From Hyphomicrobiaceae bacterium (GTDB taxonomy: Bacteria; Pseudomonadota; Alphaproteobacteria; Rhizobiales; Hyphomicrobiaceae), in NCBI GenBank assembly GCA_044867545.1, contig JBIOVC010000214.1:1-30307 (forward strand): 30,307 nucleotides of DNA, written 5' to 3'. Positions within the stretch are counted from its first letter, which is position 1; the number at the start of each line of letters is the position of its first letter. The notes below the pieces were generated by a model. It ran no database searches and was not told where the DNA came from. It saw nothing but the letters and a program-made list of their open reading frames with translations. The position numbers and the translations under genes are program-made. Of the stretch, positions 2,394 through 18,776 are shown one piece after another.

Positions 2394-4042
2394 GCCTCGA
2401 CTGCCCTTCCCTTCAGCGCGAACAGGCCGCGCGGGCGCTTCTGGATGAACAGGATCAGCAGCACGAGGATCAGGATCTTGGCGAGCACGGCGCCGGCGAT
2501 CGGCTCGAGGAACTTGTTGGCGATACCGAGCGCGAACGCCGACACGAACGTCCCCCACAGGTTGCCGACGCCGCCGAACACCACGACCATGAAGCTGTCG
2601 ATGATGTAGCCCTGGCCGAGGTTGGGCGAGACGTTGTCGATCTGCGACAGCGCCACACCCGCGATGCCGGCGATGCCCGATCCGAGGCCGAACGTCATCG
2701 CATCGACGAATCCGGTGCGGATGCCCATCGCACTCGCCATCCGCCGGTTCTGCGTCACCGCCCGCATCTGCAGCCCGAGCGGCGTCGCCTTCAGCACGAC
2801 GATCAGGCTCGCGAACACCACCAGCGTGAACACCACGATGCAGAGCCGGCCGTAGGTGATCGACAGCCCGAAGAAATCGAAGGCGCCCGACATGTAGCTC
2901 GGCGATCCGACCTGCCGGTTGCTCGACCCGAAGGTGGTGCGCACCGCCTGCTGCAGGATGAGGCTGACGCCCCAGGTCGCGAGCAGCGTCTCGAGCGGGC
3001 GGCTGTAGAGCAGGCGGATGATACCGCGCTCGATCGCGATACCGACCAGCGCCGCGACCAGGAACGCGAGCGGCAGGGCGAGCGGCAGCGACCAGTCGAA
3101 CAGCTCGGGCGCGTAGGCCCGGAACAGCTCCTGCACGACGAAAGTGGTATAGGCGCCGAGCATCACCATCTCGCCGTGCGCCATGTTGATGACGCCCATC
3201 ACGCCGAAGGTGATGGCCAGGCCGATGGCGGCGAGCAGCAGCACCGATCCGAGCGAGATGCCGTACCAGACGTTCTGCGCCATCTCGAGCATCTGCAGGC
3301 GGGCTTCGACGCTGCCGATCGCGGATTGAGCCGCAGCCTTGATTTCCGCGGGAAGGTCGCCGGCTGCCGCCGCACGCAACTGGCCGAGTGCGACCGCATC
3401 GCCGCGCTCGCCGAGCGTGGCAATGGCGTCGAGGCGATCCTGCGCGGACGCGTCGGTCTTGGCGAGCACGGCCGCCGCACGGGCTTCCGTCATCGCCCGC
3501 TTGACTGCCGGGTCCGCTTCCTTCGCGAGCGCCTTCTCGAGCACGGTGAGCGAGGCCGCATCCTGCGAGCGGAAGATCGAGTCCGCCGCTTGAATGCGCT
3601 TGGCCGGATCGGGCGCAAACAGCGCCAGCGAGCTCAGCACGCCTTCGATGGCGTTGCGCAGCCGGTTGTTGACGCGCGCGGGCGAAAGATCATCGGGAGT
3701 CTTGGTGGCCGGCTGGCCGGTCCTCGCATCGAACAGCTTGCCCGACTGATCGGCGTAGAACACCGTCTTCTCGCCGGCGCTCGTCATCAGGCGACGGTTG
3801 GCGAGAGCTTCGAGGATGGCCTGGGCGTGCGGTTCGCCGGAAGCGGCCAGCTCCTCGATTGCCTTCTCTGTTTCCGGGAAGCTGTCGGCGGCAAACCGCG
3901 CCAGCGCATCATCGACCGGAGCGGCGCTAGCGCCTGCCGGCGCGAGCAGCGCAATCGCAAGCGCGAGAATGCCGGCCGCGGCACGTCGCCGGACGGCGGC
4001 TGCCGTCCACTCTGGGAGCCACCGGCGCTTCCATCCATTCAA
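2390..4042 (-). CDS. urtB: Urea ABC transporter permease UrtB with N-terminal periplasmic domain
   Basis: SLGSVLLLAAIGLAITFGVMGVINMAHGEMVMLGAY, RPLETLLATWGVSLILQQ; signal-like segment then helical domain. Start uncertain (TTG 4042 after GGAGGGG; ORF open to 4102). Confidence 0.9.
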   Translation of the reverse strand: MNGWKRRWLPEWTAAAVRRRAAAGILALAIALLAPAGASAAPVDDALARFAADSFPETEKAIEELAASGEPHAQAILEALANRRLMTSAGEKTVFYADQSGKLFDARTGQPATKTPDDLSPARVNNRLRNAIEGVLSSLALFAPDPAKRIQAADSIFRSQDAASLTVLEKALAKEADPAVKRAMTEARAAAVLAKTDASAQDRLDAIATLGERGDAVALGQLRAAAAGDLPAEIKAAAQSAIGSVEARLQMLEMAQNVWYGISLGSVLLLAAIGLAITFGVMGVINMAHGEMVMLGAYTTFVVQELFRAYAPELFDWSLPLALPLAFLVAALVGIAIERGIIRLLYSRPLETLLATWGVSLILQQAVRTTFGSSNRQVGSPSYMSGAFDFFGLSITYGRLCIVVFTLVVFASLIVVLKATPLGLQMRAVTQNRRMASAMGIRTGFVDAMTFGLGSGIAGIAGVALSQIDNVSPNLGQGYIIDSFMVVVFGGVGNLWGTFVSAFALGIANKFLEPIAGAVLAKILILVLLILFIQKRPRGLFALKGRAVEA

Positions 4043-7287: not shown

Positions 7288-8040
7288 CTAGCGAATTGCG
7301 CGCTCGACGATCGCACCGCGGCGTGGAGCGCGGCGGAGCGCCAAAGTCAGCCGTAGAAATGTCGTGGCGATTTTCCACGCCGCTGCGAGTCCGGCGAGGA
7401 AGTTGCCGGAGACCTTGGAGATGCCGCCGCGCCGGCAGCGGTGATCGACAGGAACCTCGCGGACGCGCAGGCCGGCAGCCGCGACGCGCATCTGCATCTC
7501 CAGGTTCCACCCGTAAGTGGTCTCGCGCATGCCGAGCCGGCGCAGCCGGTCGATCCTGATGGCGCGGAACGGCGACATATCGGTGAAGCGCACGCTGTAC
7601 ACGAGGCGCATCAGAACGCCGGCAAGATGACCGGCCACCACCTGCTGCGGTGTCATGCTGCCCGCCTCGCGCCGTCCGATGAGGCGCGAGCCCATCACGA
7701 AGTCCGCTTCCCCGCGCGCCACGGGCCCGACGACCTCGGCGAGGAAACTCGGCACGTCGCTGCCGTCACCGTCGAGAAAGCAGACGATCTCGGTGTCGGA
7801 ACGCACCGCGGCGACGCCGGCGGCGCAGGCGCGGCCGTAACCGCGCACGGGCTCGGATACGACCCGCGCTCCGGCCTCGCTGGCACGTGCCGCGGTCGCA
7901 TCCCCCGAGCCGTTGTCGACGACGACGACCTCGTCGACACCCTGCTCCAGCACCTCGTGCACAACGGATGCAATCGCTGCTTCCTCGTCGAGGCACGGGA
8001 TCACGACGGACACGATCGCGTTGACGCCCGGGAGCTGCAT
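7288..8040 (-). CDS. Glycosyltransferase family 2 (DPM1-like)
   Basis: VVIPCLDEE, VVVVDNGSGD, RGYGRAC, FLDGDGSD (DxD), FVMGSR, FTDMSPFRAI, YGWNLEMQMR. Confidence 0.9.
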   Translation of the reverse strand: MQLPGVNAIVSVVIPCLDEEAAIASVVHEVLEQGVDEVVVVDNGSGDATAARASEAGARVVSEPVRGYGRACAAGVAAVRSDTEIVCFLDGDGSDVPSFLAEVVGPVARGEADFVMGSRLIGRREAGSMTPQQVVAGHLAGVLMRLVYSVRFTDMSPFRAIRIDRLRRLGMRETTYGWNLEMQMRVAAAGLRVREVPVDHRCRRGGISKVSGNFLAGLAAAWKIATTFLRLTLALRRAPRRGAIVERAIR

Positions 8041-8043
8041 GGG

Positions 8044-9123
8044 TCAAAGGCTCCAGCGCAAGCCGCAGTTGGCGCAGGCCTGCGGCGGCTGGTCCGACAG
8101 CAGCGCCTCGCGAAAGGCCCTGTAACGCGGCCCGTTCCAGATCTCGCGCAGGTCATCCTGAGTGGCATCGCCCAGCGTGTAATTCTCGTAGCCGTGCTGG
8201 GAGAACGGCGCGATGCAGCACGGAAGCGCGCGGCCGTTGGCGGTGAAATACATGACCGTCCAGGGCCGGCGACACATGGACCATGGGTTGTCATCGCGTT
8301 TGCGAGAGAGACTCAAGCCGGGCTCTGACGCTGCACCCGAGGCGCTGAATGTGAGGCCAAGCGACTTCGCCAGCGCCGCCGCCGCGTCGAGATGGCGGGC
8401 TTCCTCGGCGGTCGTGCGTTCAAACAGCGCCTGATCCGGGCGCGCCAGCCCGATCGCGTCGCGGTCGAAGAACACCAGACGCTGCAGGTAGACCTCCTTG
8501 ACGCCGATCTCGGCGGCAAGGCGCACGAAGCCAGGCAGCTCCTCGACCGTCTCCTTGAGACCGGTCAGCCAGGCCGACACGCGCGGGCGGGCGTGCCCCT
8601 CGCGCTCCTGCAGGTCGCGGAACGCCCTGACGTTCTTCAGGATGCGGCGGAAGTAGTCCTTGCCGCGCACCTTGATGAAGGATTCCGGCGTCGACGCATC
8701 GAGCGATACGCGCAGCTCGTCGAGGTCGGCGGCAATGAGCGCGCGTCCGTTCTTCTCGTTGAGCACCGTGCCGTTGGTGTTGAACAGCACGTAGACGCCG
8801 CGGTCCTTGAGGTAGCGCACCATCTTGGGCAGCGCCTTCACCAGCATCGGCTCGCCGACGCCGTGCAGAACGGCGCGCGCGACGCCCGGCACCTGATCGA
8901 CGATACGCGTGAACAGCGCCCACGGCATGTCGGCCGGCGGCTCGAGCTCTGCGTAGGTGCGCGGGCAGGTGGTGCACAGCAGATTGCAGCGGTTGGTCAC
9001 CTCCAGGTAAAGGCAGACTGGCGGCTTCTCGGCCATGCCGTCCTTGGCGGCCGCGCCGGCTTCGAAATAGCGCTCTACGTCCACGGGCTCGCGGGCTCGG
9101 GTGTCGCCCCTCAGCTCATCCAT
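8044..9123 (-). CDS. Radical SAM protein with C-terminal SPASM/twitch domain
   Basis: CNLLCTTC (CxxxCxxC), LHGVGEPML, FNTNG, VSLDA; C-terminal CRRPW...GRALPCC...LREIWNG...CANC. Confidence 0.92.
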   Translation of the reverse strand: MDELRGDTRAREPVDVERYFEAGAAAKDGMAEKPPVCLYLEVTNRCNLLCTTCPRTYAELEPPADMPWALFTRIVDQVPGVARAVLHGVGEPMLVKALPKMVRYLKDRGVYVLFNTNGTVLNEKNGRALIAADLDELRVSLDASTPESFIKVRGKDYFRRILKNVRAFRDLQEREGHARPRVSAWLTGLKETVEELPGFVRLAAEIGVKEVYLQRLVFFDRDAIGLARPDQALFERTTAEEARHLDAAAALAKSLGLTFSASGAASEPGLSLSRKRDDNPWSMCRRPWTVMYFTANGRALPCCIAPFSQHGYENYTLGDATQDDLREIWNGPRYRAFREALLSDQPPQACANCGLRWSL

Positions 9124-9232
9124 TGCGAGGCTCCTGCAATTGGCGTGAGGAGTAAGTGGAGATTAGCCGCATTGGCTCGGGCCTGCACGCGGTCGTGCCA
9201 GAGGTGGCGGCTGGCATGGTAGCGGCCATGCG

Positions 9233-11444: not shown

Positions 11445-11718
11445 CGTTCGCGGTCCCTTGTTCCCGCACGGCACCATCTGCAGCCGACGACCAACACGCT
11501 GCTGATCGCGCTGACGGTCGTCCACCTGCCCGCGATGATCGAGGAGCAGCCTGAGCTGTCGGAGTGACGGTGCTCCGAGCACGCTGGGAACTTTCCTCGG
11601 CGTTCCAGTGTTCCTTAGATAAAACAGCCTCCTATAAGGGGCCGCTAGTGGTCCTTAGTAAGGGAAGAGGCGAATGGAATGCAGCCAAGCGCTTGCGGCC
11701 AATGGACTTGAGACGCTC

Positions 11719-11946
11719 ATGTCACCGATAGCACCCAAGAAACTCGCGGCCGAGTTCTGGACGGACACTTATCGCGGGACTCGAATTGCCATCTTCAGGC
11801 GGCATGGCGCGTGGCATGTGTATCTCGACGACGTGCTTCAGCACGATGTCTTGTTCGACTCGGCCGGCTCCGCCGTGTTCTGGCTCCTCAACCGGATCGA
11901 TCCTCGAAACATCCCGCCCCTCCCGCATCAGGCACGGACCTCATGA
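11719..11946 (+). CDS. Small hypothetical protein
   Basis: MSPIAPKKLAAEFWTDTYRGTRIAIFRRHGAWHVYLDDVLQHDVLFDSAGSAVFWLLNRID...; globular-looking composition. Alternative start 11674. Confidence 0.55.
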   Translation: MSPIAPKKLAAEFWTDTYRGTRIAIFRRHGAWHVYLDDVLQHDVLFDSAGSAVFWLLNRIDPRNIPPLPHQARTS

Positions 11947-12014: not shown

Positions 12015-12464
12015 GTGACGGTATGGACACGACCCGTGCGCAAGCGTGCACCCAATCAACTGCGTCCTGCATTCGGCGTACCAGGTGATCTCGCCACGCC
12101 TACCGGAGGCTATGGATATGACCGGCGCATCATCCGGGAGCTTCGGCGTCTGGGTTGGCAGGTGGATGTAGTTGAGGTCGGCGACGGGTTTCCGTTTCCG
12201 AGCGTCGCACAGCGCGCGACGGCGCTGGCCAGACTATCGTCCGTGCCCGCCGGTTGTCCGGCTGTCCTGGATGGGCTTGCGTTCGCGGCACTTCCCGAGG
12301 CCGGCGCGCTCCGAACGCGCATACCGCTTGTCGCGCTGGTTCACCAACCACTCGCTTTGGACCATGGTCTCGACACCACCCAGGCAGACACGTTTCGGAA
12401 GACCGAGCGCGCGGCACTTGTTGCTGCCCCGCGCGTCGTAGTCACGGCAGGACCCAGAGCGTGA
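12015..12464 (+). pseudogene. Truncated GT4-type (GT-B) glycosyltransferase, N-terminal half only
   Basis: FGVPGDLATPTGGYGYDRRII...LDGLAF...LVALVHQPLA...ERAAL...VVVT then stop; the C-terminal nucleotide-sugar-binding half is absent. Confidence 0.7.
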
Positions 12465-12541: not shown

Positions 12542-13294
12542 CTATCTTGGGATACCTGTCTGAGTGGGCGGGGCAGCCGGCAGCGCGGGCATGGGCGCTT
12601 CAGCGCCTTGCGGCATTGGGTCCTGCGCGCGGCTGACTTCTTGGCGCTCCGGTAGAGAGGCCACCACGGTTACGCTGGTGCCGATCTCAGTGATAGACGC
12701 GAGATGCATGGCGGCGGAATTGAGCATTCGGAAACAGCCGGAGGACCCAGCGGAACCGATCGACTTGGCGTCGTTGGTGCCATGGATGCGGTAAAGCGTG
12801 TCGCCCAGGTAGAGAGCTATTGCACCGAGCGGATTCTTGATGCCGCCGGTCATCTTCTCGGGCAGACTCCGGTCTCTTTCGCGCATCTCCGCGGGCGGAT
12901 ACCAATCGGGCCAGGCCTGCTTACGGCTGATCGTTTCCACCCCTGTCCAATTGAAGCCTTCCCGGCCGACCGCGATGGGGTATTCGTAGGCGCTGCCGTC
13001 CCCGAGCGCGTAGTAGAGCTTTCGTCCGCCGGCATCGATAACGATTGACTTGGCGGGAAAATCGTACGGGAACGCGACTATCGGAGGTACCGTCGGATGA
13101 ATCTGCGGGCGCGGACCGCCATCGCGAACATCGCCGCCCCGGTCTTTGGGACGGCCTGGCGGGTACGGTGGCATTTGCCGCGGTTCGCCGAACAGTTCAT
13201 CGGCCCACCACGGCCATCCATATGCCGGGCCCGGCGCATAGCAGGTGACGAGCCATGCACCGCTCAGCACAATGAGGTAGGCGCCCTTTCGCAT
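12542..13294 (-). CDS. L,D-transpeptidase (ErfK/YkuD family) with signal peptide
   Basis: YPIAVGREG, RKQAWPDWYPPAEM, NPLGAIALYL, YRIHGTN...SSGCFRM catalytic motif. Confidence 0.92.
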   Translation of the reverse strand: MRKGAYLIVLSGAWLVTCYAPGPAYGWPWWADELFGEPRQMPPYPPGRPKDRGGDVRDGGPRPQIHPTVPPIVAFPYDFPAKSIVIDAGGRKLYYALGDGSAYEYPIAVGREGFNWTGVETISRKQAWPDWYPPAEMRERDRSLPEKMTGGIKNPLGAIALYLGDTLYRIHGTNDAKSIGSAGSSGCFRMLNSAAMHLASITEIGTSVTVVASLPERQEVSRAQDPMPQGAEAPMPALPAAPPTQTGIPR

Positions 13295-13321
13295 TTATGC
13301 GCTCCGTTCGGCCACCAGCCA

Positions 13322-13346
13322 AACGCGCAGATGCACTTCATGTTCC
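13322..13346 (-). promoter_or_regulatory. sigma-EcfG promoter of the L,D-transpeptidase
   Basis: Minus strand GGAAC-ATGAAGTGCATCTGCG-CGTT (N16), 28 nt upstream of ATG 13294 with a GGAG SD between. Confidence 0.75.
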
Positions 13347-13433
13347 GGACAATCCGGGCAGGCGCCACAAGCACCACGACGTCGGCCCGTGAGCAACGCC
13401 CGAGTGGACATGAAGTGACGCGACAGCGCGGGG

Positions 13434-13458
13434 GGAACTGGACGATGCGAGGCGCGTT
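13434..13458 (+). promoter_or_regulatory. sigma-EcfG promoter, divergent from the LDT promoter
   Basis: GGAAC-TGGACGATGCGAGGCG-CGTT (N16). Confidence 0.75.
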
Positions 13459-13466
13459 CCTGCGGC

Positions 13467-13565
13467 ATGGCGGAAACGGGAATGCTGCTGATTGCCATTG
13501 GCGTTGCGCTGGCGACGATGCCGTTGTGGTGGCCCGAGTTCTTCGATCCTCCGGAGCAGCGCTGA
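13467..13565 (+). CDS. 32-aa single-TM small protein, probably leaderless
   Basis: MAETGMLLIAIGVALATMPLWWPEFFDPPEQR; ATG 8 nt after the -10 element; below the ORF-track cutoff. Confidence 0.55.
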   Translation: MAETGMLLIAIGVALATMPLWWPEFFDPPEQR

Positions 13566-13755
13566 GGCTCCGATCGTCTCTCTTGCACCCGCGAAGACAG
13601 GGAATCTCTAACGCAACAAGGAACTGGCTGGCGCACAGACTGCCTCAGTGCGCCTCGCCCGATCTGCTTGCTGCATATGGCAGTGCCGCATGCCGGCGAC
13701 GAATTCGCGGTTTCGTTGACCGCCCCGCAAGATTTGCTACCCAGAGGCAGCGAGC

Positions 13756-15525
13756 ATGCGAACCCTCGGCCTCGTCTGCGAAACCCACGACACCGGTGCC
13801 GCGCTAGTCGAGGACGGCAATATCCTCAGCGTTCTGGAGGAAGAGCGCCATCTCCGCGAGAAGCATACGCAGAGCTTCCCCAGTCACTCGCTCCGCATCC
13901 TCCTCGGCGACGATGGTCGCGGCCTTGCCGAGATCGATCACATCACCACGCCCTGGGACGTCTCGCGGCTGCGGCGCACGTTTGCCACCATCCTGCTTCG
14001 CCGCTTTCCGGCAACCCTGAGCTTCGCGCATCCGCGGTCCAACACAATGCAGGACCCCGGCATCGCTCTCTTGAATTTCTGGTTGCAGCGAGGGCTCAAG
14101 CGCACCTTTCCGGGACGCCGCCTGCCGCCGATCATCAACGTCGGCCATCACGAGTCTCATGCGGCGATGTTCTTCGTATCGCCGTTCGAGGAAGCGACCG
14201 TGATTGTGATGGACGGCTATGGCGACGATGCCGCGGCGAGCGTCTTCACCGGCCAAGACAACCGGTTGCATCGGGAGTGGCACGGGCGCTTTCTGGACAG
14301 CCTCGGTATTGTTTACACGCTTGTTACAATCCACCTCGGCTTCGCCCCGTTCGAGGAAGGCACCGTCATGGCGCTGGCTGCGTTGGGACGGGATGGGCTG
14401 GTCGAGAAGATGCGGGACATCGTCCGGCTGGAGCCCGAGGGTCGGTTCTCGATCAACATGGCCTATTTCGGCTACGACAGCTTTGGCATGTTGCGTCCGT
14501 TCAAGCGCAAGTTCATCGATGCGTTCGGGCCGGCGCGCAGAAAGGACGAGCCGCTCAATGCGCATCACAAGGATCTCGCCTACGCACTGCAGACCGTGAC
14601 CGAGGAGATCGTGCTCCACGTCGCCAAGGCCGCAAGCCGGCGTTATCCCTCAGCCAATCTCTGCATGGTTGGCGGGGTCGCGCTCAATTGTGTAGCGAAT
14701 GCTCGCGTGCTGCGCGAGTCGGGCTTCGAGCGGATCTGGGTTCCGCCGTGTGCGTCGGATACCGGTGGGCCGCTCGGCAGTGCACTCTGGCATCAGCACC
14801 AGACGTTGCGACAGCCGCGTCGCACGACGATGACGCATGCCTACTACGGCCTCGGCTATGACGATCGACTAATCGAGTCGGCATTGCAGAGCGCGGGCCT
14901 CGCCTTTCAAAGACTGGAAGACGCCGAGCTGATCTCCAAGGTCGCCTCCGACCTCGCCGGCGGACGCATCGTTGGCTGGTTCCAGGATCGTTACGAGATC
15001 GGCCCGCGCGCACTCGGCAACCGCTCCATTCTCGCTTCTCCGATTTCTCCCGCGGTTCGCGACCTGATCAACAAGCATGTCAAGTTTCGCGAGCCATTCC
15101 GTCCGTTCGCCCCGTCCGTTCTGGCGGAGAATGCAAGAGAGTGGTTCGAGATAGGTCAGCCTGATCCGTTCATGGCCATTGCGCCGCGGGTCCGACCGGG
15201 CATGGCAGCGCGAATTCCCGCCGCCGTTCATGTCGATGGAACCGCCCGTATCCAGACGGTCGATCGCGCGAGCAATCCCCGCTATCACGCCTTGATCGAT
15301 GCCTTTGGTGCTCTCACGGGCGTGCCGATCCTGCTCAATACCAGCTTCAACAAGCAGGAGCCGATCGTGGCGCAACCGGCGGAGGCAATATCCTGCTTCC
15401 TGCGTACCGACATGGAGGTGCTCGTGTTGGGCAACTACTATACGACCGATCGGCCGAAGGCTGCTGTGCAGCGCTCGCGCTCATCATTCACGGTAACGGA
15501 AGGGAATATGCGCGGTGGGGAATGA
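13756..15525 (+). CDS. Carbamoyltransferase (NodU/CmcH/TobZ family)
   Basis: HDTGAAL...EEER, HHESHAA, MDGYGD, GGVALNCVAN, GWFQDRYEIGPRALGNRSILA, KFREPFRPFAP, HVDGTARIQTV, LLNTSFN; appears full length. Confidence 0.93.
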   Translation: MRTLGLVCETHDTGAALVEDGNILSVLEEERHLREKHTQSFPSHSLRILLGDDGRGLAEIDHITTPWDVSRLRRTFATILLRRFPATLSFAHPRSNTMQDPGIALLNFWLQRGLKRTFPGRRLPPIINVGHHESHAAMFFVSPFEEATVIVMDGYGDDAAASVFTGQDNRLHREWHGRFLDSLGIVYTLVTIHLGFAPFEEGTVMALAALGRDGLVEKMRDIVRLEPEGRFSINMAYFGYDSFGMLRPFKRKFIDAFGPARRKDEPLNAHHKDLAYALQTVTEEIVLHVAKAASRRYPSANLCMVGGVALNCVANARVLRESGFERIWVPPCASDTGGPLGSALWHQHQTLRQPRRTTMTHAYYGLGYDDRLIESALQSAGLAFQRLEDAELISKVASDLAGGRIVGWFQDRYEIGPRALGNRSILASPISPAVRDLINKHVKFREPFRPFAPSVLAENAREWFEIGQPDPFMAIAPRVRPGMAARIPAAVHVDGTARIQTVDRASNPRYHALIDAFGALTGVPILLNTSFNKQEPIVAQPAEAISCFLRTDMEVLVLGNYYTTDRPKAAVQRSRSSFTVTEGNMRGGE

Positions 15526-15628
15526 GGCCCGCGCCCATCATCCATTGAGACCACAGTCCCTTTGCGGGTCGTAGAGCCAGCACCACATCGATGGAAATTC
15601 ACGCGCAAGCCAAACGAAAGGACACGCA

Positions 15629-16108
15629 ATGGCAATGGCCAAAAACACGATTTGCGTATGGTACGACAAGGACGCCGAGGCTGCGGCCCGATTCTACGCC
15701 GAGACCTTTCCTGACAGCTCCGTCGGTGCCGTCTACCACGCACCCAGTGACTACCCTTCAGGCAAGGCGGGCGACGTTCTGACGGTCGAGTTCACGGTCG
15801 CCGGCATCCCCTGTCTCGGGCTCAACGGCGGCCCCGCGTTCAAGCATAACGAAGCCTTCTCGTTCCAGATCGCCACCGACGATCAGCAGGAGACCGACCG
15901 TTACTGGAACGCCATCGTCGGCAATGGCGGCCAGGAGAGCGCGTGCGGCTGGTGCAAAGACAAGTGGGGCGTCTCCTGGCAAATCACGCCGCGCGTGCTG
16001 ATGGAGGCGATGGCGGCCGGCGGCGATGAAGCCAAGCGCGCGTTCGAAGCGATGATGGACATGAAGAAGATCGACGTCGCCGCGATCAAGGCGGCGCGGC
16101 GCGGCTGA
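15629..16108 (+). CDS. VOC family protein (PhnB / 3-demethylubiquinone-9 3-methyltransferase-like)
   Basis: KNTICVWYDKDAEAAARFYAETFPDS, LGLNGGPAF, EAFSFQI, CGWCKDKWGVSWQI, AMMDMKKID. Confidence 0.9.
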   Translation: MAMAKNTICVWYDKDAEAAARFYAETFPDSSVGAVYHAPSDYPSGKAGDVLTVEFTVAGIPCLGLNGGPAFKHNEAFSFQIATDDQQETDRYWNAIVGNGGQESACGWCKDKWGVSWQITPRVLMEAMAAGGDEAKRAFEAMMDMKKIDVAAIKAARRG

Positions 16109-16320
16109 CTCGCGCGGATCATCGCGCCTGCGCCCCTCAGAACGCAACGGACCGCGGGGCCTTGGTCGGGGCCAAAGCCCACGGCGACCTCTTCCCAGAT
16201 GCCGTCGAAAGCCCTCTCTGTAGACGGCGACAAGACATCATTGCCAAGGAGGAGCAGGCGGCCGCGCACGAGTAGCCCTCGCGGGGGCGTGCAGTGCGCG
16301 TCGCCCGCATGGTCGACGAT

Positions 16321-16551
16321 TCACCGCTCAGCTTCCCGCAAGGTACCGATCGCCGTGGCGATCACAAGCGGAGCGAACGTCGTAGCGCAACCAAGGAGGA
16401 AAACCACCGTCGTACCCACGACATCAGCCGACGCCGTCACCAGCGATCGCATGCCGAGCGCATCTGTTGTCAGGAGAGCAAGGCCGAAGATCGCGCCGAC
16501 AACCACGCCCATCGCGGCGTTGATCATGAGATAGCCCGGGACAGTTGCCAT
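16321..16551 (-). CDS. 76-aa two-TM small membrane protein, probably leaderless
   Basis: MATVPGYLMINAAMGVVVGAIFGLALLTTDALGMRSLV...FLLGCATTFAPLVIATAIG; ATG 7 nt after an EcfG -10 element. Confidence 0.7.
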   Translation of the reverse strand: MATVPGYLMINAAMGVVVGAIFGLALLTTDALGMRSLVTASADVVGTTVVFLLGCATTFAPLVIATAIGTLREAER

Positions 16552-16558
16552 GTAAGAG

Positions 16559-16584
16559 AACGACGGCACGATCCCCCGAGTTCC
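16559..16584 (-). promoter_or_regulatory. sigma-EcfG promoter
   Basis: Minus strand GGAAC-TCGGGGGATCGTGCCGT-CGTT (N17). Confidence 0.75.
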
Positions 16585-16637
16585 TGAAACGCCGTCCGCA
16601 GGTAGGCGAGGTTCCGCCGTGCGGCGTTCCCGTCGAC

Positions 16638-16856
16638 TCAATATTCCGGCGGCGGCTCGGGTTTGCGTGGCGGCTCGATCTCGCGGCGTGCGTCCGCGTC
16701 CGCTTGCTCACGCTCCTTGTCATCGAGGTAATGGATCAGATCGACCCAGCGGCTGGGCAACTGCTCACGCGTGAGAGCGTCGTAGCGGTCGTGCAGCGCT
16801 TTGCCGATGCGCTCCAACATCGAATGCAACTCTGGGCCGGAAAGGGCATCTGGCAT
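16638..16856 (-). CDS. NepR-like anti-sigma-factor domain protein (orphan)
   Basis: LERIGKALHDRYDALTREQLPSRWVDLIHYLD fits the NepR pattern IG-x2-L-x3-YD-x4-E-x-(V/L)P-x-R-(F/W)-x-DL. Start 16856 or 16820. Confidence 0.6.
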   Translation of the reverse strand: MPDALSGPELHSMLERIGKALHDRYDALTREQLPSRWVDLIHYLDDKEREQADADARREIEPPRKPEPPPEY

Positions 16857-16928
16857 TAGCCTACCCGCATAACGAGCCAGCGCGCCCCAACGTCTCTGTG
16901 TGCGGTTTCCTACATTCCGCTGATAGCA

Positions 16929-16953
16929 AACGCGGACCCGTGGCCAGGGTTCC
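16929..16953 (-). promoter_or_regulatory. sigma-EcfG promoter of the NepR-like gene
   Basis: Minus strand GGAAC-CCTGGCCACGGGTCCG-CGTT (N16). Confidence 0.75.
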
Positions 16954-17116
16954 GCACCAAACGAAATGGGCACCTCCGCGATCCAACCGGGCACCTGTGG
17001 GAGGTAGTCTGGAATCCCGCGAACATTCCAGCTGATGGCTAGGCGCGGCAACTGCTGCATCGCGTCTCCGCAGGGAGACTTAACGTGGCGCGCCTCAGCA
17101 CCGGCAGATCATCACA

Positions 17117-17311
17117 CTAGGATGCGTTCGCGCTCTGGCCCCGGTGTTTGCTCGCAAGGATCGCCAGCCGTTCGTAGCCGTTGGCAATCTCGCACATGAT
17201 CCGCTTGGCTTTGGGATCGCTCATGATGACGGCGCCGACCCGCGCTTGTGCAGCTAGAGCGCACCAATAGACCGGGTTGTCTCTATCCGAGGACGTGTCT
17301 CTAGTTCCCAT
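17117..17311 (-). CDS. 64-aa small helical hypothetical protein
   Basis: SD AGGAGGG before ATG 17311; NPVYWCALAAQARVGAVIMSDPKAKRIMCEIANGYERLA resembles a recurrent rhizobial small-protein pattern (from memory, not searched). Confidence 0.7.
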   Translation of the reverse strand: MGTRDTSSDRDNPVYWCALAAQARVGAVIMSDPKAKRIMCEIANGYERLAILASKHRGQSANAS

Positions 17312-17410
17312 GGGACCCTCCTGGGCCATGTGGGAGGGGCGCCTCGCGGGGCGAGGTGCCCTTCGGCTGCGCCTTTTTGGGGAGGGGGCTGTAGCGCAGC
17401 TCTCCAAAAA

Positions 17411-17435
17411 AACGCGGGATGTGTCCGCCGGTTCC
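17411..17435 (-). promoter_or_regulatory. sigma-EcfG promoter
   Basis: Minus strand GGAAC-CGGCGGACACATCCCG-CGTT (N16). Confidence 0.75.
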
Positions 17436-17633
17436 TAGCCACCCGCTGTTGTCTTTGGATAGCCTCCGCTTCCCCTCTGGGACGGGGACTTCGGGGTGGC
17501 GGGAACCAGGGGCGTCTCGGGCGGCAACCGCAGACGCCCTTCCCTTTCCTCTTGCCCGACCATCGGTCGCGAGCCACGGCGCAAAGCCCATACCTACCGC
17601 CACGCCCACCAGGAGTCGTGACGCGGCCAGGCG

Positions 17634-17659
17634 GGAACCTGCGGCCGCACGCCCACGTT
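17634..17659 (+). promoter_or_regulatory. sigma-EcfG promoter
   Basis: GGAAC-CTGCGGCCGCACGCCCA-CGTT (N17). Confidence 0.75.
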
Positions 17660-17745
17660 TTTACAAGTCAACTAAGTGGGTGTTCTGCCGTGTGCGGCGC
17701 GCTTTCGCGAGCGATTGGATCCCACGGCCCGAAGTGGATTGTGCG

Positions 17746-18507
17746 ATGAACGACCAAGTATCCCGTACTAGTGGCGCTCAGGAGGTAGCAAGCCACGATT
17801 CAGACCCGGCAAGGCTGCCGGAGCTGCGCATCTATGGCCACTCGAGCCTATTCTACTGGTGGCCGGTGTGGGTCACCGGTTTTGCGGGGGCCTTGATCAC
17901 ATATGCCCGTGGCGGCGTCGTTCGTGTCGATGAAGCTCACCAGCAGTACATCGTCGATAGCTCTGCACTTGGACTTACGTTCGTTGCTGTGCTGCTGGCG
18001 ATCATCTTGTTCACCAACTACCGCCTGCGCGGCCTGATCTCCGTGTCTGTACTGCTCGCGCTCGCGTTCGTGACGGTGCTGTTCGCCTGGCTTGGCTGGT
18101 GGGACGACATCCTGGAGTTCTTGCCGCATCTTTCCGTGCACATGAACATGGGCTTCTATCTGGTATTCTCGACCGCACTCTTCATCATCTGGCTGTTGTC
18201 GTTCTTCGTATTCGATCGCCTCGTTTACTGGCGCGTCCGACCCGGTCAGCTCACAGAGGAGCACGTGATCGGTGGAGCAGAGCTCGCCTACGACACACGC
18301 GGCATGCTGTTCGAGCAGCACGGTGACGACTTCTTCCGGCATGTTGTCCTCGGGCTCGGAGCAGGCGATCTAAAGCTCATGACCACGGGCGCCAAGTCAG
18401 AACAGATCGACATCCCGAATGTGCTCTTCGCCAATCACAAGGTGAAGCAGATCCAGAGGCTCGTGGCGGTGAAGCCTGACGATGCGCTGTCTGCGAACGC
18501 CGCTTGA
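17746..18507 (+). CDS. Uncharacterised multi-pass membrane protein with soluble C-terminal domain
   Basis: IYGHSSLFYWWPVW, about four TM helices, then FDRLVYWRVRPGQL...DDFFRHVVLGLGAGDL...IPNVLF; ATG 17746. Confidence 0.8.
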   Translation: MNDQVSRTSGAQEVASHDSDPARLPELRIYGHSSLFYWWPVWVTGFAGALITYARGGVVRVDEAHQQYIVDSSALGLTFVAVLLAIILFTNYRLRGLISVSVLLALAFVTVLFAWLGWWDDILEFLPHLSVHMNMGFYLVFSTALFIIWLLSFFVFDRLVYWRVRPGQLTEEHVIGGAELAYDTRGMLFEQHGDDFFRHVVLGLGAGDLKLMTTGAKSEQIDIPNVLFANHKVKQIQRLVAVKPDDALSANAA

Positions 18508-18599
18508 CGAGCGCCAGGCATTCACGGATGCGCCATCGGCGCACATTCTGACAGCCGTGGGACCCGTCAGAGACCGCAGCCGACCGACCGTAGGCTTGT

Positions 18600-18691
18600 T
18601 GGCGGAGACGGGGGGATTCGAACCCCCGGTACCCGTTTCCGAGTACAACGGTTTAGCAAACCGCCGCCTTCAGCCACTCGGCCACGTCTCC
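18600..18691 (-). tRNA. tRNA-Ser (GCT)
   Basis: GGAGACGTGGCCGAGTGGCTGAAGGCGGCGGTTTGCTAAACCGTTGTACTCGGAAACGGGTACCGGGGGTTCGAATCCCCCCGTCTCCGCCA: long variable arm, TTCGAAT T-loop, encoded CCA. Confidence 0.97.
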
Positions 18692-18776
18692 CCGAAACGA
18701 GTGGCGGGTATATCAGGTGAGCCCCGAAAAGCAAACGCAAGGGCACTCCACGCGGGCAACTTGGGGCACTCGCCGC

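What the first reader, a model, noticed from the sequence alone, without database searches (positions are those of the whole stretch)
13294..18507. General-stress-response islet: six exact sigma-EcfG promoters in ~4.3 kb, each heading a mostly unknown gene
GGAAC-N16/17-CGTT occurs at 13322-13346(-), 13434-13458(+), 16559-16584(-), 16929-16953(-), 17411-17435(-) and 17634-17659(+). All six are intergenic and correctly oriented toward a gene start. A rough hand estimate assuming ~63% GC gives under 0.1 such hits expected in this span. The motif is the established alphaproteobacterial EcfG/sigmaT/RpoE2 consensus. The targets are an LDT, four small proteins (one NepR-like) and a membrane protein, which together suggest an undescribed clustered GSR output and tuning module beside a tRNA. 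The scan was by eye and may have missed sites.
Basis: partly seen in the sequence, partly recalled or inferred. Interest (0 to 1): 0.82.

Follow-up and report, generated by a model that had tools for sequence, protein, structure and literature searches.

The report
Cluster of six general-stress promoters
A soil alphaproteobacterium has packed six promoters of its well-known general-stress sigma factor (EcfG) into 4.3 kb next to a tRNA gene, driving a cell-wall enzyme, small membrane proteins, a spare NepR-like regulator and a tiny helical protein; the call is correct, but it is a new example of a known regulon rather than a new system.

Summary
Six exact GGAAC-N16/17-CGTT sites lie at the stated coordinates, against 0.40 expected per 30 kb. 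This is the densest such cluster in the 3.8-Mb, 75%-complete MAG.

The EcfG reading is well supported:
- The genome carries two complete phyR-nepR-ecfG modules bearing the same motif.
- Only spacers of 16 or 17 nt are enriched in non-coding DNA genome-wide (27 and 17 sites, against 2-11 for other spacers).
- Other sites head hallmark stress genes (CsbD, PRC-barrel, DUF1328, DUF3309).
- Homologues of the NepR-like gene (15 of 21) and of the 64-aa protein (14 of 14) in other genomes keep the motif upstream.
- Soil metatranscriptome contigs cover the predicted units but not the promoter gaps.

The "module" reading is only partly supported. The cluster is not conserved, even in the same genus. There the synteny breaks at tRNA-Ser and the 253-aa membrane gene, with its promoter, sits at another locus. 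The motif is not kept upstream of the LDT, mem76, mem253 or carbamoyltransferase homologues, apart from isolated cases.

The orphan NepR-like protein has a published precedent in Methylobacterium extorquens, and a model supports its binding to PhyR. This scan has found similar EcfG promoter clusters in other genomes. Verdict: real, a new member of a known kind, modest interest.

The parts
13322..13346 (-). EcfG-type promoter P1 (GGAAC-N16-CGTT), 27 nt before the LDT start codon; a GGAG Shine-Dalgarno lies between
12542..13294 (-). L,D-transpeptidase (YkuD domain, 250 aa, signal peptide, HGT...SSGCFRM active-site motif present)
   Evidence: Pfam PF03734 E 1e-17. RNA contigs cover 12665-12974. 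The motif is not conserved upstream of the closest homologues (1 of 30).
13434..13458 (+). EcfG-type promoter P2 (N16), divergent from P1; 8 nt before the ATG of a 32-aa ORF and 297 nt before the carbamoyltransferase
13467..13565 (+). Candidate leaderless 32-aa membrane micro-ORF (unverified)
   Evidence: Translation. No credible homologue in 150 family genomes.
13756..15525 (+). NodU/CmcH-type carbamoyltransferase, possibly transcribed from P2 through a long leader. It is one of three paralogues in the genome and the congener has no orthologue.
   Evidence: Pfam. An RNA contig at 13562-13764 bridges the leader. Orthologues elsewhere carry no motif (0 of 29).
15629..16108 (+). PhnB/3-dmu-9_3-mt (VOC-like) protein, no promoter of its own detected, GC3 typical of the genome
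16559..16584 (-). EcfG-type promoter P3 (N17), 7 nt before the ATG of mem76 (predicted leaderless)
16321..16551 (-). mem76: 76-aa two-helix membrane protein of unknown family
   Evidence: Translation. No Pfam or NCBIfam match. Homologues at 25-42% identity in 26 of 150 family genomes, 1 of 15 with the motif.
16929..16953 (-). EcfG-type promoter P4 (N16), 72 nt before the NepR-like start codon
   Evidence: RNA contigs 16665-16910 and 16696-16891 end just inside the predicted TSS.
16638..16856 (-). Orphan NepR-like protein, 72 aa, 'W-type' core LPSRWVDLIHYLD
   Evidence: Pfam NepR E 0.025, below threshold. hhalign to canonical NepR: probability 96.4%, E 1.4e-9. Complex model with PhyR: 0.77 against 0.01 for the best control. 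Motif upstream of 15 of 21 homologues.
17411..17435 (-). EcfG-type promoter P5 (N16), 99 nt before the sp64 start codon (AGGAGG Shine-Dalgarno)
   Evidence: RNA contig 17069-17391 ends 12-14 nt inside the predicted TSS.
17117..17311 (-). sp64: 64-aa helical-hairpin protein of a large unannotated family
   Evidence: AF2 pLDDT 86. 7850 cluster representatives at E<=1e-3. Motif upstream of 14 of 14 homologues. Deepest RNA cover in the islet outside the VOC gene and the tRNA, whose depth comes from many organisms.
17634..17659 (+). EcfG-type promoter P6 (N17), divergent from P5, 86 nt before the mem253 start codon
   Evidence: An RNA contig starts at 17684. No RNA cover over 17468-17674, although DNA runs cover it.
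17746..18507 (+). mem253: 253-aa membrane protein (4-5 TM helices plus a beta-rich C-terminal domain), unknown family
   Evidence: In the congener it sits with its own motif at a different locus.
18600..18691 (-). tRNA-Ser(GCU). Its 3' end faces the islet, and synteny with the congener begins exactly here.

Best explanation
The six sites are functional promoters read by RNA polymerase carrying an EcfG-type (ECF15) sigma factor. This organism has two such sigma factors, each with its own NepR and PhyR.

Inferred mechanism. Under stress, PhyR is phosphorylated and captures NepR, which frees EcfG. The six units are then switched on together:
- a periplasmic L,D-transpeptidase, for 3-3 cross-linking of peptidoglycan;
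- a predicted leaderless transcript that begins with a 32-aa ORF and probably reads on into a carbamoyltransferase;
- a predicted leaderless 76-aa membrane protein;
- an orphan NepR-like protein;
- a 64-aa helical-hairpin protein;
- a 253-aa membrane protein.

The NepR-like protein most likely binds the sigma-like domain of PhyR. By titrating PhyR it would give negative feedback, as shown for the orphan paralogue META2p0735 of Methylobacterium extorquens.

The cluster is not a conserved operon-like module. It is a lineage-specific accumulation of self-contained promoter-plus-gene units in a low-GC3 variable region that abuts the 3' end of tRNA-Ser.

Shown: the motif statistics, the genomic setting, conservation of the motif upstream of two of the families, the presence of the regulators, and RNA cover in soil. 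Inferred: dependence on EcfG, the exact transcription starts, the function of each product, and the feedback role.
For: - **Statistics.** Six exact sites against 0.40 expected per window. This is the top cluster of the genome.
- **Spacer control.** In non-coding-like DNA, N16 gives 27 sites and N17 gives 17, against 2-11 for each spacer from N10-15 and N18-24.
- **Regulators present.** phyR/nepR-ecfG on contig C46, and phyR2/nepR2-ecfG2 plus an HWE kinase on C474, carry the same motif at their own promoters.
- **Other targets.** Elsewhere in the genome the motif heads CsbD, PRC-barrel, DUF3309, DUF1328, DUF1236 and an outer-membrane beta-barrel protein.
- **Footprint.** The motif is kept, on the sense strand, upstream of 15 of 21 NepR-like and 14 of 14 sp64 homologues, with 0 on the antisense control.
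- **No alternative promoter.** No sigma-70-like promoter was found in the islet.
- **RNA.** Soil metatranscriptome contigs cover the LDT, the 13562-13764 leader, the NepR-like gene, sp64 and mem253. They stop 12-17 nt inside the predicted starts. The two divergent promoter gaps are uncovered by RNA although DNA runs cover them.
- **NepR-like.** hhalign probability 96.4%. NepR chains are the best true PDB hits. Complex score with PhyR is 0.77, best control 0.01; this mark was reached by 55 of 80 solved complexes and 3 of 110 mismatched pairs. Published precedent: PMC4814048.
- **Accretion.** GC3 is 0.70-0.76 for the units that carry a motif (the VOC gene inside the islet is 0.84), against 0.87-0.91 in the flanks. 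Synteny with the congener starts at the tRNA. mem253 and its promoter sit elsewhere in the congener.
Against: - No strand-specific or 5'-end data exist. The RNA evidence is sparse assembled contigs from related strains (about 97% identity), and DNA carry-over cannot be fully excluded.
- The motif is not conserved upstream of the homologues of the LDT (1 of 30), mem76 (1 of 15), mem253 (1 of 6) or the carbamoyltransferase (0 of 29). For these four units the support is only local.
- The 32-aa ORF has no homologues.
- The NepR-like protein fails Pfam's gathering score (14.7 against 25.7 bits). The complex pass may also reflect the model's memory of solved PhyR-NepR structures.
- Which of the two EcfG paralogues acts at these sites is unknown.
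Confidence: 0.78

Rival explanations
1. The whole 6-kb block is one horizontally acquired genomic island that integrated at tRNA-Ser and brought its EcfG promoters with it as a pre-assembled stress module.
For: The block lies next to the 3' end of tRNA-Ser. Its GC and GC3 are lower than the flanks. Synteny with the congener breaks exactly at the tRNA, and the congener has a nitrilase-like gene there instead. A truncated glycosyltransferase fragment lies at the left edge.
Against: There is no integrase and no direct repeat of the tRNA 3' end. No genome among about 150 of the family has two or more of the parts adjacent. The parts have very different distributions: the LDT family in nearly all genomes, mem76 in 26 of 150, NepR-like in 7 of 150, sp64 in 4 of 150. 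mem253 sits alone elsewhere in the congener.
Confidence: 0.12
2. The sites are promoters, but they are read by another ECF sigma factor with a similar GGAAC/CGTT preference, or by only the second EcfG paralogue, so the cluster is not part of the main PhyR-controlled general stress response.
For: GGAAC at -35 is common to many ECF groups. The genome has two EcfG-type sigma factors and a SigF-type ECF in the same window (first-reader notes). In M. extorquens and Sphingopyxis the EcfG paralogues divide the regulon between them (PMC4814048, PMC7083833).
Against: The same exact motif precedes phyR, phyR2 and nepR2-ecfG2, and also CsbD, PRC-barrel and DUF1328 genes, which are typical EcfG targets.
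Confidence: 0.08
3. The motif cluster is a chance or compositional artefact without promoter function.
For: Genome-wide, the raw count of N16/17 matches (61) is only modestly above the counts for other spacers.
Against: None of 100 shuffles reaches 6. All six sites lie in non-coding DNA and are correctly oriented. The enrichment in non-coding DNA is specific to spacers of 16 and 17 nt. The motif is conserved upstream of homologues in other genomes.
Confidence: 0.01

Closest known systems
EcfG (ECF15; SigT, RpoE2) general-stress regulon promoters of Alphaproteobacteria, e.g. Sphingomonas melonis Fr1 (PMC6599016) and Methylobacterium extorquens AM1 (PMC4814048)
   Same: - The same -35 and -10 boxes and spacing.
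- Targets dominated by small hypothetical and envelope proteins.
- Motifs lie 2-100 nt before the start codon, including distances that imply leaderless mRNAs.
- The regulators carry the motif at their own promoters.
- Neighbouring locus tags each with its own motif occur in the S. melonis table (#1442, #1444, #1446).
   Different: Six units in 4.3 kb is denser than usual and is the densest cluster in this genome. Apart from the LDT, the target families are unnamed. No experimental regulon exists for this uncultured lineage.
MexAM1_META2p0735, orphan NepR paralogue of M. extorquens AM1 (PMC4814048)
   Same: A small NepR homologue that is not next to ecfG. It is transcribed from an EcfG-type promoter and binds PhyR (shown by co-immunoprecipitation there; supported only by a model here). 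This implies negative feedback on the GSR.
   Different: No detectable close sequence relation: tblastn of the window protein against the plasmid collection found nothing. The window protein belongs to a 'W-type' subfamily (LPxRW[VI]DL in place of [VI]PDRF) and scores below Pfam's NepR threshold. Its binding to EcfG was not tested.
RpoE2 promoter clusters driving tiny genes on the Sinorhizobium meliloti megaplasmids
   Same: Several general-stress promoters within 1-2 kb, each in front of a very small gene.
   Different: A different organism and different gene families. Those clusters are backed by published transcriptomes; this one is not.
tRNA-linked genomic islands
   Same: The islet abuts the 3' end of a tRNA gene, has atypical codon composition, and is absent from the congener at that site.
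   Different: No integrase, no att direct repeat, and no sign that the block moved as one piece.

Membership tests
EcfG (ECF15)-dependent promoter | GGAAC at -35 and CGTT at -10, separated by 16-17 nt | tested here: met
   Six exact matches.
EcfG (ECF15)-dependent promoter | Non-coding position, sense orientation, short distance to a start codon | tested here: met
   Codon-periodicity index 0.04-0.12. Distances from CGTT to the start codon are 7, 8, 27, 72, 86 and 99 nt.
EcfG (ECF15)-dependent promoter | The genome encodes EcfG with NepR and PhyR, and these carry the motif at their own promoters | tested here: met
   Two full modules on contigs C46 and C474.
EcfG (ECF15)-dependent promoter | The motif behaves as a regulon signal genome-wide (spacer-specific enrichment; hallmark GSR targets) | tested here: met
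   27 (N16) and 17 (N17) non-coding-like sites against 2-11 for other spacers. Targets include CsbD, PRC-barrel, DUF1328 and DUF3309.
EcfG (ECF15)-dependent promoter | Transcription start 6-9 nt after the -10 box, and loss of the transcript in ecfG or phyR mutants | tested here: inconclusive
   Metatranscriptome contigs end 12-17 nt inside the predicted starts and leave the promoter gaps uncovered. There are no 5'-end data and no mutants, because the organism is uncultured.
NepR anti-sigma factor (PF18557) | Match to the family model above the curated cut-off | tested here: not met
   14.7 bits against a cut-off of 25.7, E 0.025, although it covers profile positions 3-35 of 35.
NepR anti-sigma factor (PF18557) | Homology of the two-helix core to canonical NepR | tested here: met
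   hhalign probability 96.4%, E 1.4e-9 over 42 columns. NepR chains 5uxx_B, 4qic_B and 2lfw_B are the best true PDB hits, at E 0.04-0.1.
NepR anti-sigma factor (PF18557) | Binds the sigma-like domain of PhyR | tested here: inconclusive
   The model supports binding: score 0.77, best control 0.01. This mark was reached by 55 of 80 solved complexes and 3 of 110 mismatched pairs. Solved PhyR-NepR complexes exist, so the pass shows likeness, not binding.
NepR anti-sigma factor (PF18557) | Binds and inhibits EcfG; gene lies next to ecfG | tested here: not met
   The gene is orphan and no sigma-factor gene lies in the islet. Binding to EcfG was not tested.
L,D-transpeptidase (YkuD) | YkuD catalytic domain with the His...Cys motif | tested here: met
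   PF03734, E 1e-17, full-length domain. HGTN...SSGCFRM can be read in the translation.
tRNA-integrated genomic island | Integrase and a direct repeat of the tRNA 3' end at the far border | tested here: not met
   No repeat beyond chance. No integrase domain among the ORFs scanned.
tRNA-integrated genomic island | Atypical composition, and absence from a close relative at the same tRNA | tested here: met
   GC3 0.70-0.76 for the motif-bearing units against 0.87-0.91 in the flanks. In the congener, synteny starts at the tRNA and different DNA lies beyond it.

The most novel reading that the evidence does not exclude
EcfG-dependent genes in this lineage may behave as self-contained, relocatable 'promoter plus small gene' cassettes that accumulate at hot spots such as the tRNA-Ser border, so that the general-stress regulon is rebuilt quickly between species. 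Within the islet, the 64-aa helical-hairpin family is very large (at least 7850 clusters at 50% identity), is not annotated, and was found behind an EcfG promoter in every case examined. It could be an unrecognised regulator or chaperone-like effector of the general stress response rather than a passive output.
Probability: 0.15. Interest if true: 0.55.

Novelty: new member of a known kind. Interest (0 to 1): 0.3.

Why it matters
The finding adds a clean, statistically solid example of how the alphaproteobacterial general-stress regulon is organised in an uncultured soil lineage. It also yields three concrete leads:
- An orphan 'W-type' NepR paralogue that may feed back on PhyR.
- A very large, unannotated family of about 60-aa helical-hairpin proteins that is consistently wired to EcfG and is transcribed in soil.
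- Evidence that promoter-plus-gene units move between loci in congeners.

None of these changes the accepted picture of the PhyR-NepR-EcfG system. The value lies in annotation and in candidate genes for stress-survival studies.

Tried and rejected
- **Synteny of the islet.** tblastn of all islet proteins against the mem253 loci of five relatives found only mem253. The carbamoyltransferase loci of 29 relatives carry none of the other parts.
- **Relaxed motif.** Allowing one mismatch upstream of the LDT, mem76 and mem253 homologues gave nothing above the antisense control.
- **att-site search.** Only chance-level repeats of 14-17 nt were found.
- **sp32 homologues.** None credible; all had E above 0.007 and lay inside long ORFs.
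- **sp64.** Pfam gave nothing. The word-index search gave 4 near-identical hits. Foldseek against PDB gave only generic helical hairpins, E above 0.8. Source names are all 'hypothetical protein'. A class-wide sample found matches in only 2 of 200 further genomes at E<=1e-6, too few for a wider footprint.
- **mem253.** The AF2 model is of low confidence (pLDDT 57.5), so no fold search was made. The Atlas hint of a bPH_2-like C-terminus (score 0.83) is only a lead.
- **Plasmid collection.** No match for sp64 or the NepR-like protein, so no link to named model-organism genes.
- **A first crude gene caller** (GC3 at least 0.78) missed most islet genes. This is how the low GC3 of the islet came to light.
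Full report
**Observation.** A pattern search finds exactly six GGAAC-N16/17-CGTT matches in the 30,307-base window. Dinucleotide-preserving shuffles give 0.40 matches per window and never more than 2.

The window is a whole contig (C214) of a 3.8-Mb assembly in 654 contigs, estimated 75% complete. Across that assembly there are 61 exact matches. The six-site cluster is the densest by a factor of two. The runner-up, with three sites, is one of the organism's own phyR-nepR-ecfG loci.

**Genes served.** After trimming over-extended ORFs to the first sensible start downstream of each promoter, the units are as follows:

| Promoter | Coordinates (strand) | Unit served | Distance from CGTT to start codon |
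|---|---|---|---|
| P1 | 13322-13346 (-) | YkuD L,D-transpeptidase, 12542-13294; signal peptide, intact His/Cys motif | 27 nt, GGAG Shine-Dalgarno |
| P2 | 13434-13458 (+) | 32-aa hydrophobic ORF, 13467-13565; then a NodU/CmcH carbamoyltransferase (13756-15525) and a PhnB-like gene | 8 nt to the 32-aa ORF; 297 nt to the carbamoyltransferase |
| P3 | 16559-16584 (-) | mem76, a 76-aa two-helix membrane protein, 16321-16551 | 7 nt |
| P4 | 16929-16953 (-) | NepR-like protein, 72 aa, 16638-16856 | 72 nt |
| P5 | 17411-17435 (-) | sp64, 64 aa, 17117-17311 | 99 nt, AGGAGG Shine-Dalgarno |
| P6 | 17634-17659 (+) | mem253, a 253-aa membrane protein, 17746-18507 | 86 nt |

P1/P2 and P5/P6 are divergent pairs. 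tRNA-Ser(GCU) follows at 18600-18691 on the minus strand. No sigma-70-like promoter was found in the region.

**Are these EcfG promoters?** Five lines of evidence say yes.

1. The regulators are present. Contig C46 carries phyR divergent from nepR-ecfG. Contig C474 carries a second phyR, a second nepR-ecfG pair and an HWE histidine kinase. The exact motif precedes phyR, phyR2 and nepR2-ecfG2.
2. A spacer control supports the motif. I scored each match by the codon periodicity of its surroundings. Matches in non-coding-like DNA number 27 for N16 and 17 for N17, but only 2-11 for every other spacer from N10 to N24. About 22% of random positions score as non-coding-like. The motif is therefore a real signal in this genome, with roughly 30 or more sites in the assembled part. 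The islet holds six of them.
3. Elsewhere in the genome the motif heads classic general-stress genes: CsbD, a PRC-barrel protein, DUF3309, DUF1328, DUF1236 and an outer-membrane beta-barrel protein.
4. There is a phylogenetic footprint. Among homologues fetched from other genomes, the exact motif lies upstream on the sense strand of 15 of 21 NepR-like genes and 14 of 14 sp64-family genes. It never appears on the antisense strand of the same stretches.
5. Two soil metatranscriptomes hold contigs about 97% identical to the islet. They cover the LDT (12665-12974), the leader between the 32-aa ORF and the carbamoyltransferase (13562-13764), the NepR-like gene (16665-16910), sp64 (17069-17391, the deepest cover in the islet apart from the VOC gene and the tRNA, whose depth comes from many organisms) and mem253 (17684-18214). 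Their outer ends lie 12-17 nt inside the predicted transcription starts. The promoter gaps 13121-13534 and 17468-17674 have no RNA cover, although DNA runs cover them. This is suggestive only: contigs carry no strand, are sparse and come from related strains.

The published consensus and regulon make-up agree with all of this. In Sphingomonas melonis the motif is GGAAC-N17-20-GTT and the targets are mostly hypothetical proteins. Distances to the start codon range from 2 to about 100 nt, and neighbouring locus tags each have their own motif (PMC6599016).

**Is it a module?** The evidence says no, not as a conserved unit.
- In about 150 genomes of the same family the parts have unrelated distributions: LDT relatives in nearly all, mem76 in 26, the NepR-like protein in 7 and sp64 in 4. 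No locus examined holds two of them together.
- The motif is not kept upstream of the homologues of the LDT (1 of 30), mem76 (1 of 15), mem253 (1 of 6, the congener only) or the carbamoyltransferase (0 of 29).
- In the only other genome of the genus, the right flank (tRNA-Ser, a phosphoribosyltransferase, a GST and onward) is syntenic and the match starts exactly at the tRNA. On the other side of the tRNA that genome has a nitrilase-like gene, no islet gene and no motif.
- In that congener, mem253 with its own exact motif sits as a roughly 1.5-kb insert between genes that are adjacent on another contig (C489) of the present genome. There it lies next to an EcfG-driven DUF1328 gene.
- The islet genes that carry a motif have a GC3 of 0.70-0.76, against 0.87-0.91 in the flanking genes; the VOC gene inside the islet is typical of the genome at 0.84.
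- There is no integrase and no att-like repeat of the tRNA end.

The best reading is a variable region beside tRNA-Ser that has collected independent EcfG-driven units, rather than a transferred island or a co-evolved module. Independent metagenome contigs overlap across the whole islet and across the junction to the tRNA, so it is not an assembly chimera. Some of those runs may, however, be the MAG's own source.

**The NepR-like protein.** It scores below Pfam's NepR threshold: 14.7 bits against 25.7, although the match runs end to end on the model. With six homologues it forms a 'W-type' subfamily whose core is LPxRW[VI]DL-x3-LD[ED][QK]ER.

A profile-profile comparison with canonical NepRs, including this genome's two, gives probability 96.4% and E 1.4e-9 over the functional two-helix core. 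NepR chains are the best genuine PDB hits. A complex prediction with the sigma-like domain of this genome's PhyR gave 0.77 against a best control of 0.01. The tool's verdict is that the model supports binding. That mark was reached by 55 of 80 solved complexes and 3 of 110 mismatched pairs. Because PhyR-NepR complexes have been solved, the pass shows likeness rather than proof.

The published precedent is MexAM1_META2p0735 of Methylobacterium extorquens, an orphan NepR homologue with an EcfG-type promoter. It is induced by stress in a PhyR-dependent way and binds PhyR but no EcfG. Overexpressing it makes cells stress-sensitive, and the authors interpret it as negative feedback (PMC4814048). 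I infer the same role here. It works like that protein, but membership in the curated NepR family is not established.

**sp64 and the other products.** sp64 is predicted with confidence to be a helical hairpin (pLDDT 86). It has no Pfam family. A profile search of 1.84 billion cluster representatives returns 7850 hits at E<=1e-3 and 1185 at E<=1e-10, mostly proteins of 55-100 aa. Every named one that I looked up is 'hypothetical'.

In one genus of the family the genes occur as tandem paralogues, each with its own EcfG motif, often 10-11 nt before the ATG. One locus (L037) has four motifs in 1.3 kb. Dense arrays of EcfG promoters before tiny genes are therefore recurrent.

Fold comparison gave nothing specific. 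mem253 folds poorly (pLDDT 57.5) into 4-5 membrane helices and a beta-rich C-terminal domain. A language-model search points weakly to bPH_2-type proteins. mem76 and the 32-aa ORF remain uncharacterised, and the latter has no homologues.

**Comparison and novelty.** Everything fits the known PhyR-NepR-EcfG general stress response. Four things are new here:
- the particular set of targets in an uncultured soil lineage, whose relatives are labelled 'uncultured Alphaproteobacteria' or 'Hyphomicrobiaceae';
- the density of the cluster;
- the W-type NepR subfamily;
- the link between EcfG and the large sp64 family.

Earlier notes of this scan describe comparable EcfG promoter clusters in at least five other genomes, including published Sinorhizobium meliloti cases. 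I did not check those notes, and my scores rest only on my own tests. I class the finding as a new member of a known kind, of modest interest.

Noticed in passing
window 11587-11612 (+), with ORF 11674-11946 (+): A near-consensus site, GGAAC-N17-TGTT, overlaps its own inverted copy at 11589-11614 (-). It lies 61 nt before a 90-aa ORF that is 77% identical to one in the congener. This is a possible seventh, weaker EcfG-type promoter at the left edge of the islet. The ORF has no Pfam family.
   Followed up: partly
window 12015-12464 (+): A 149-aa ORF matches only the N-terminal half of GT4 glycosyltransferases (E 5e-4) and stops just before the LDT gene. It looks like a truncated gene remnant marking a rearrangement border.
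   Followed up: no
own genome contigs C46 (L018) and C474 (L017): The genome has two complete PhyR-NepR-EcfG modules. The C474 module has back-to-back exact EcfG motifs only 10 nt apart (2197-2221 minus, 2232-2256 plus), a third motif at 3312-3336 and an HWE/PAS histidine kinase next door.
   Followed up: partly
L037 (G164:C28) 445-1735; also L033-L035: Tandem sp64-family paralogues each have their own exact EcfG motif, and one locus carries four motifs in 1.3 kb. Several have the ATG 10-11 nt after CGTT, which suggests leaderless or near-leaderless mRNAs as a habit of this family.
   Followed up: partly
L013 (G001:C225) 7681-9162, compared with own contig C489 2110-2341: In the congener, mem253 with its promoter is a roughly 1.5-kb insert between genes that are adjacent in the present genome, next to an EcfG-driven DUF1328 gene. 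This suggests that promoter-plus-gene units relocate.
   Followed up: partly
window 13756-15525: The carbamoyltransferase is one of three paralogues in this genome (the others are on C139 and C316, 59% identical). Its closest relatives (64-72% identity) are in other genera, and the congener has none, which suggests lateral acquisition.
   Followed up: no
window 15812-16018 and 18503-18700: All four sequencing runs pile up here (word depth 145-390). The cause is contigs from many organisms that match a conserved part of the PhnB-like gene and the tRNA. It is not a sign of high expression of this locus.
   Followed up: no
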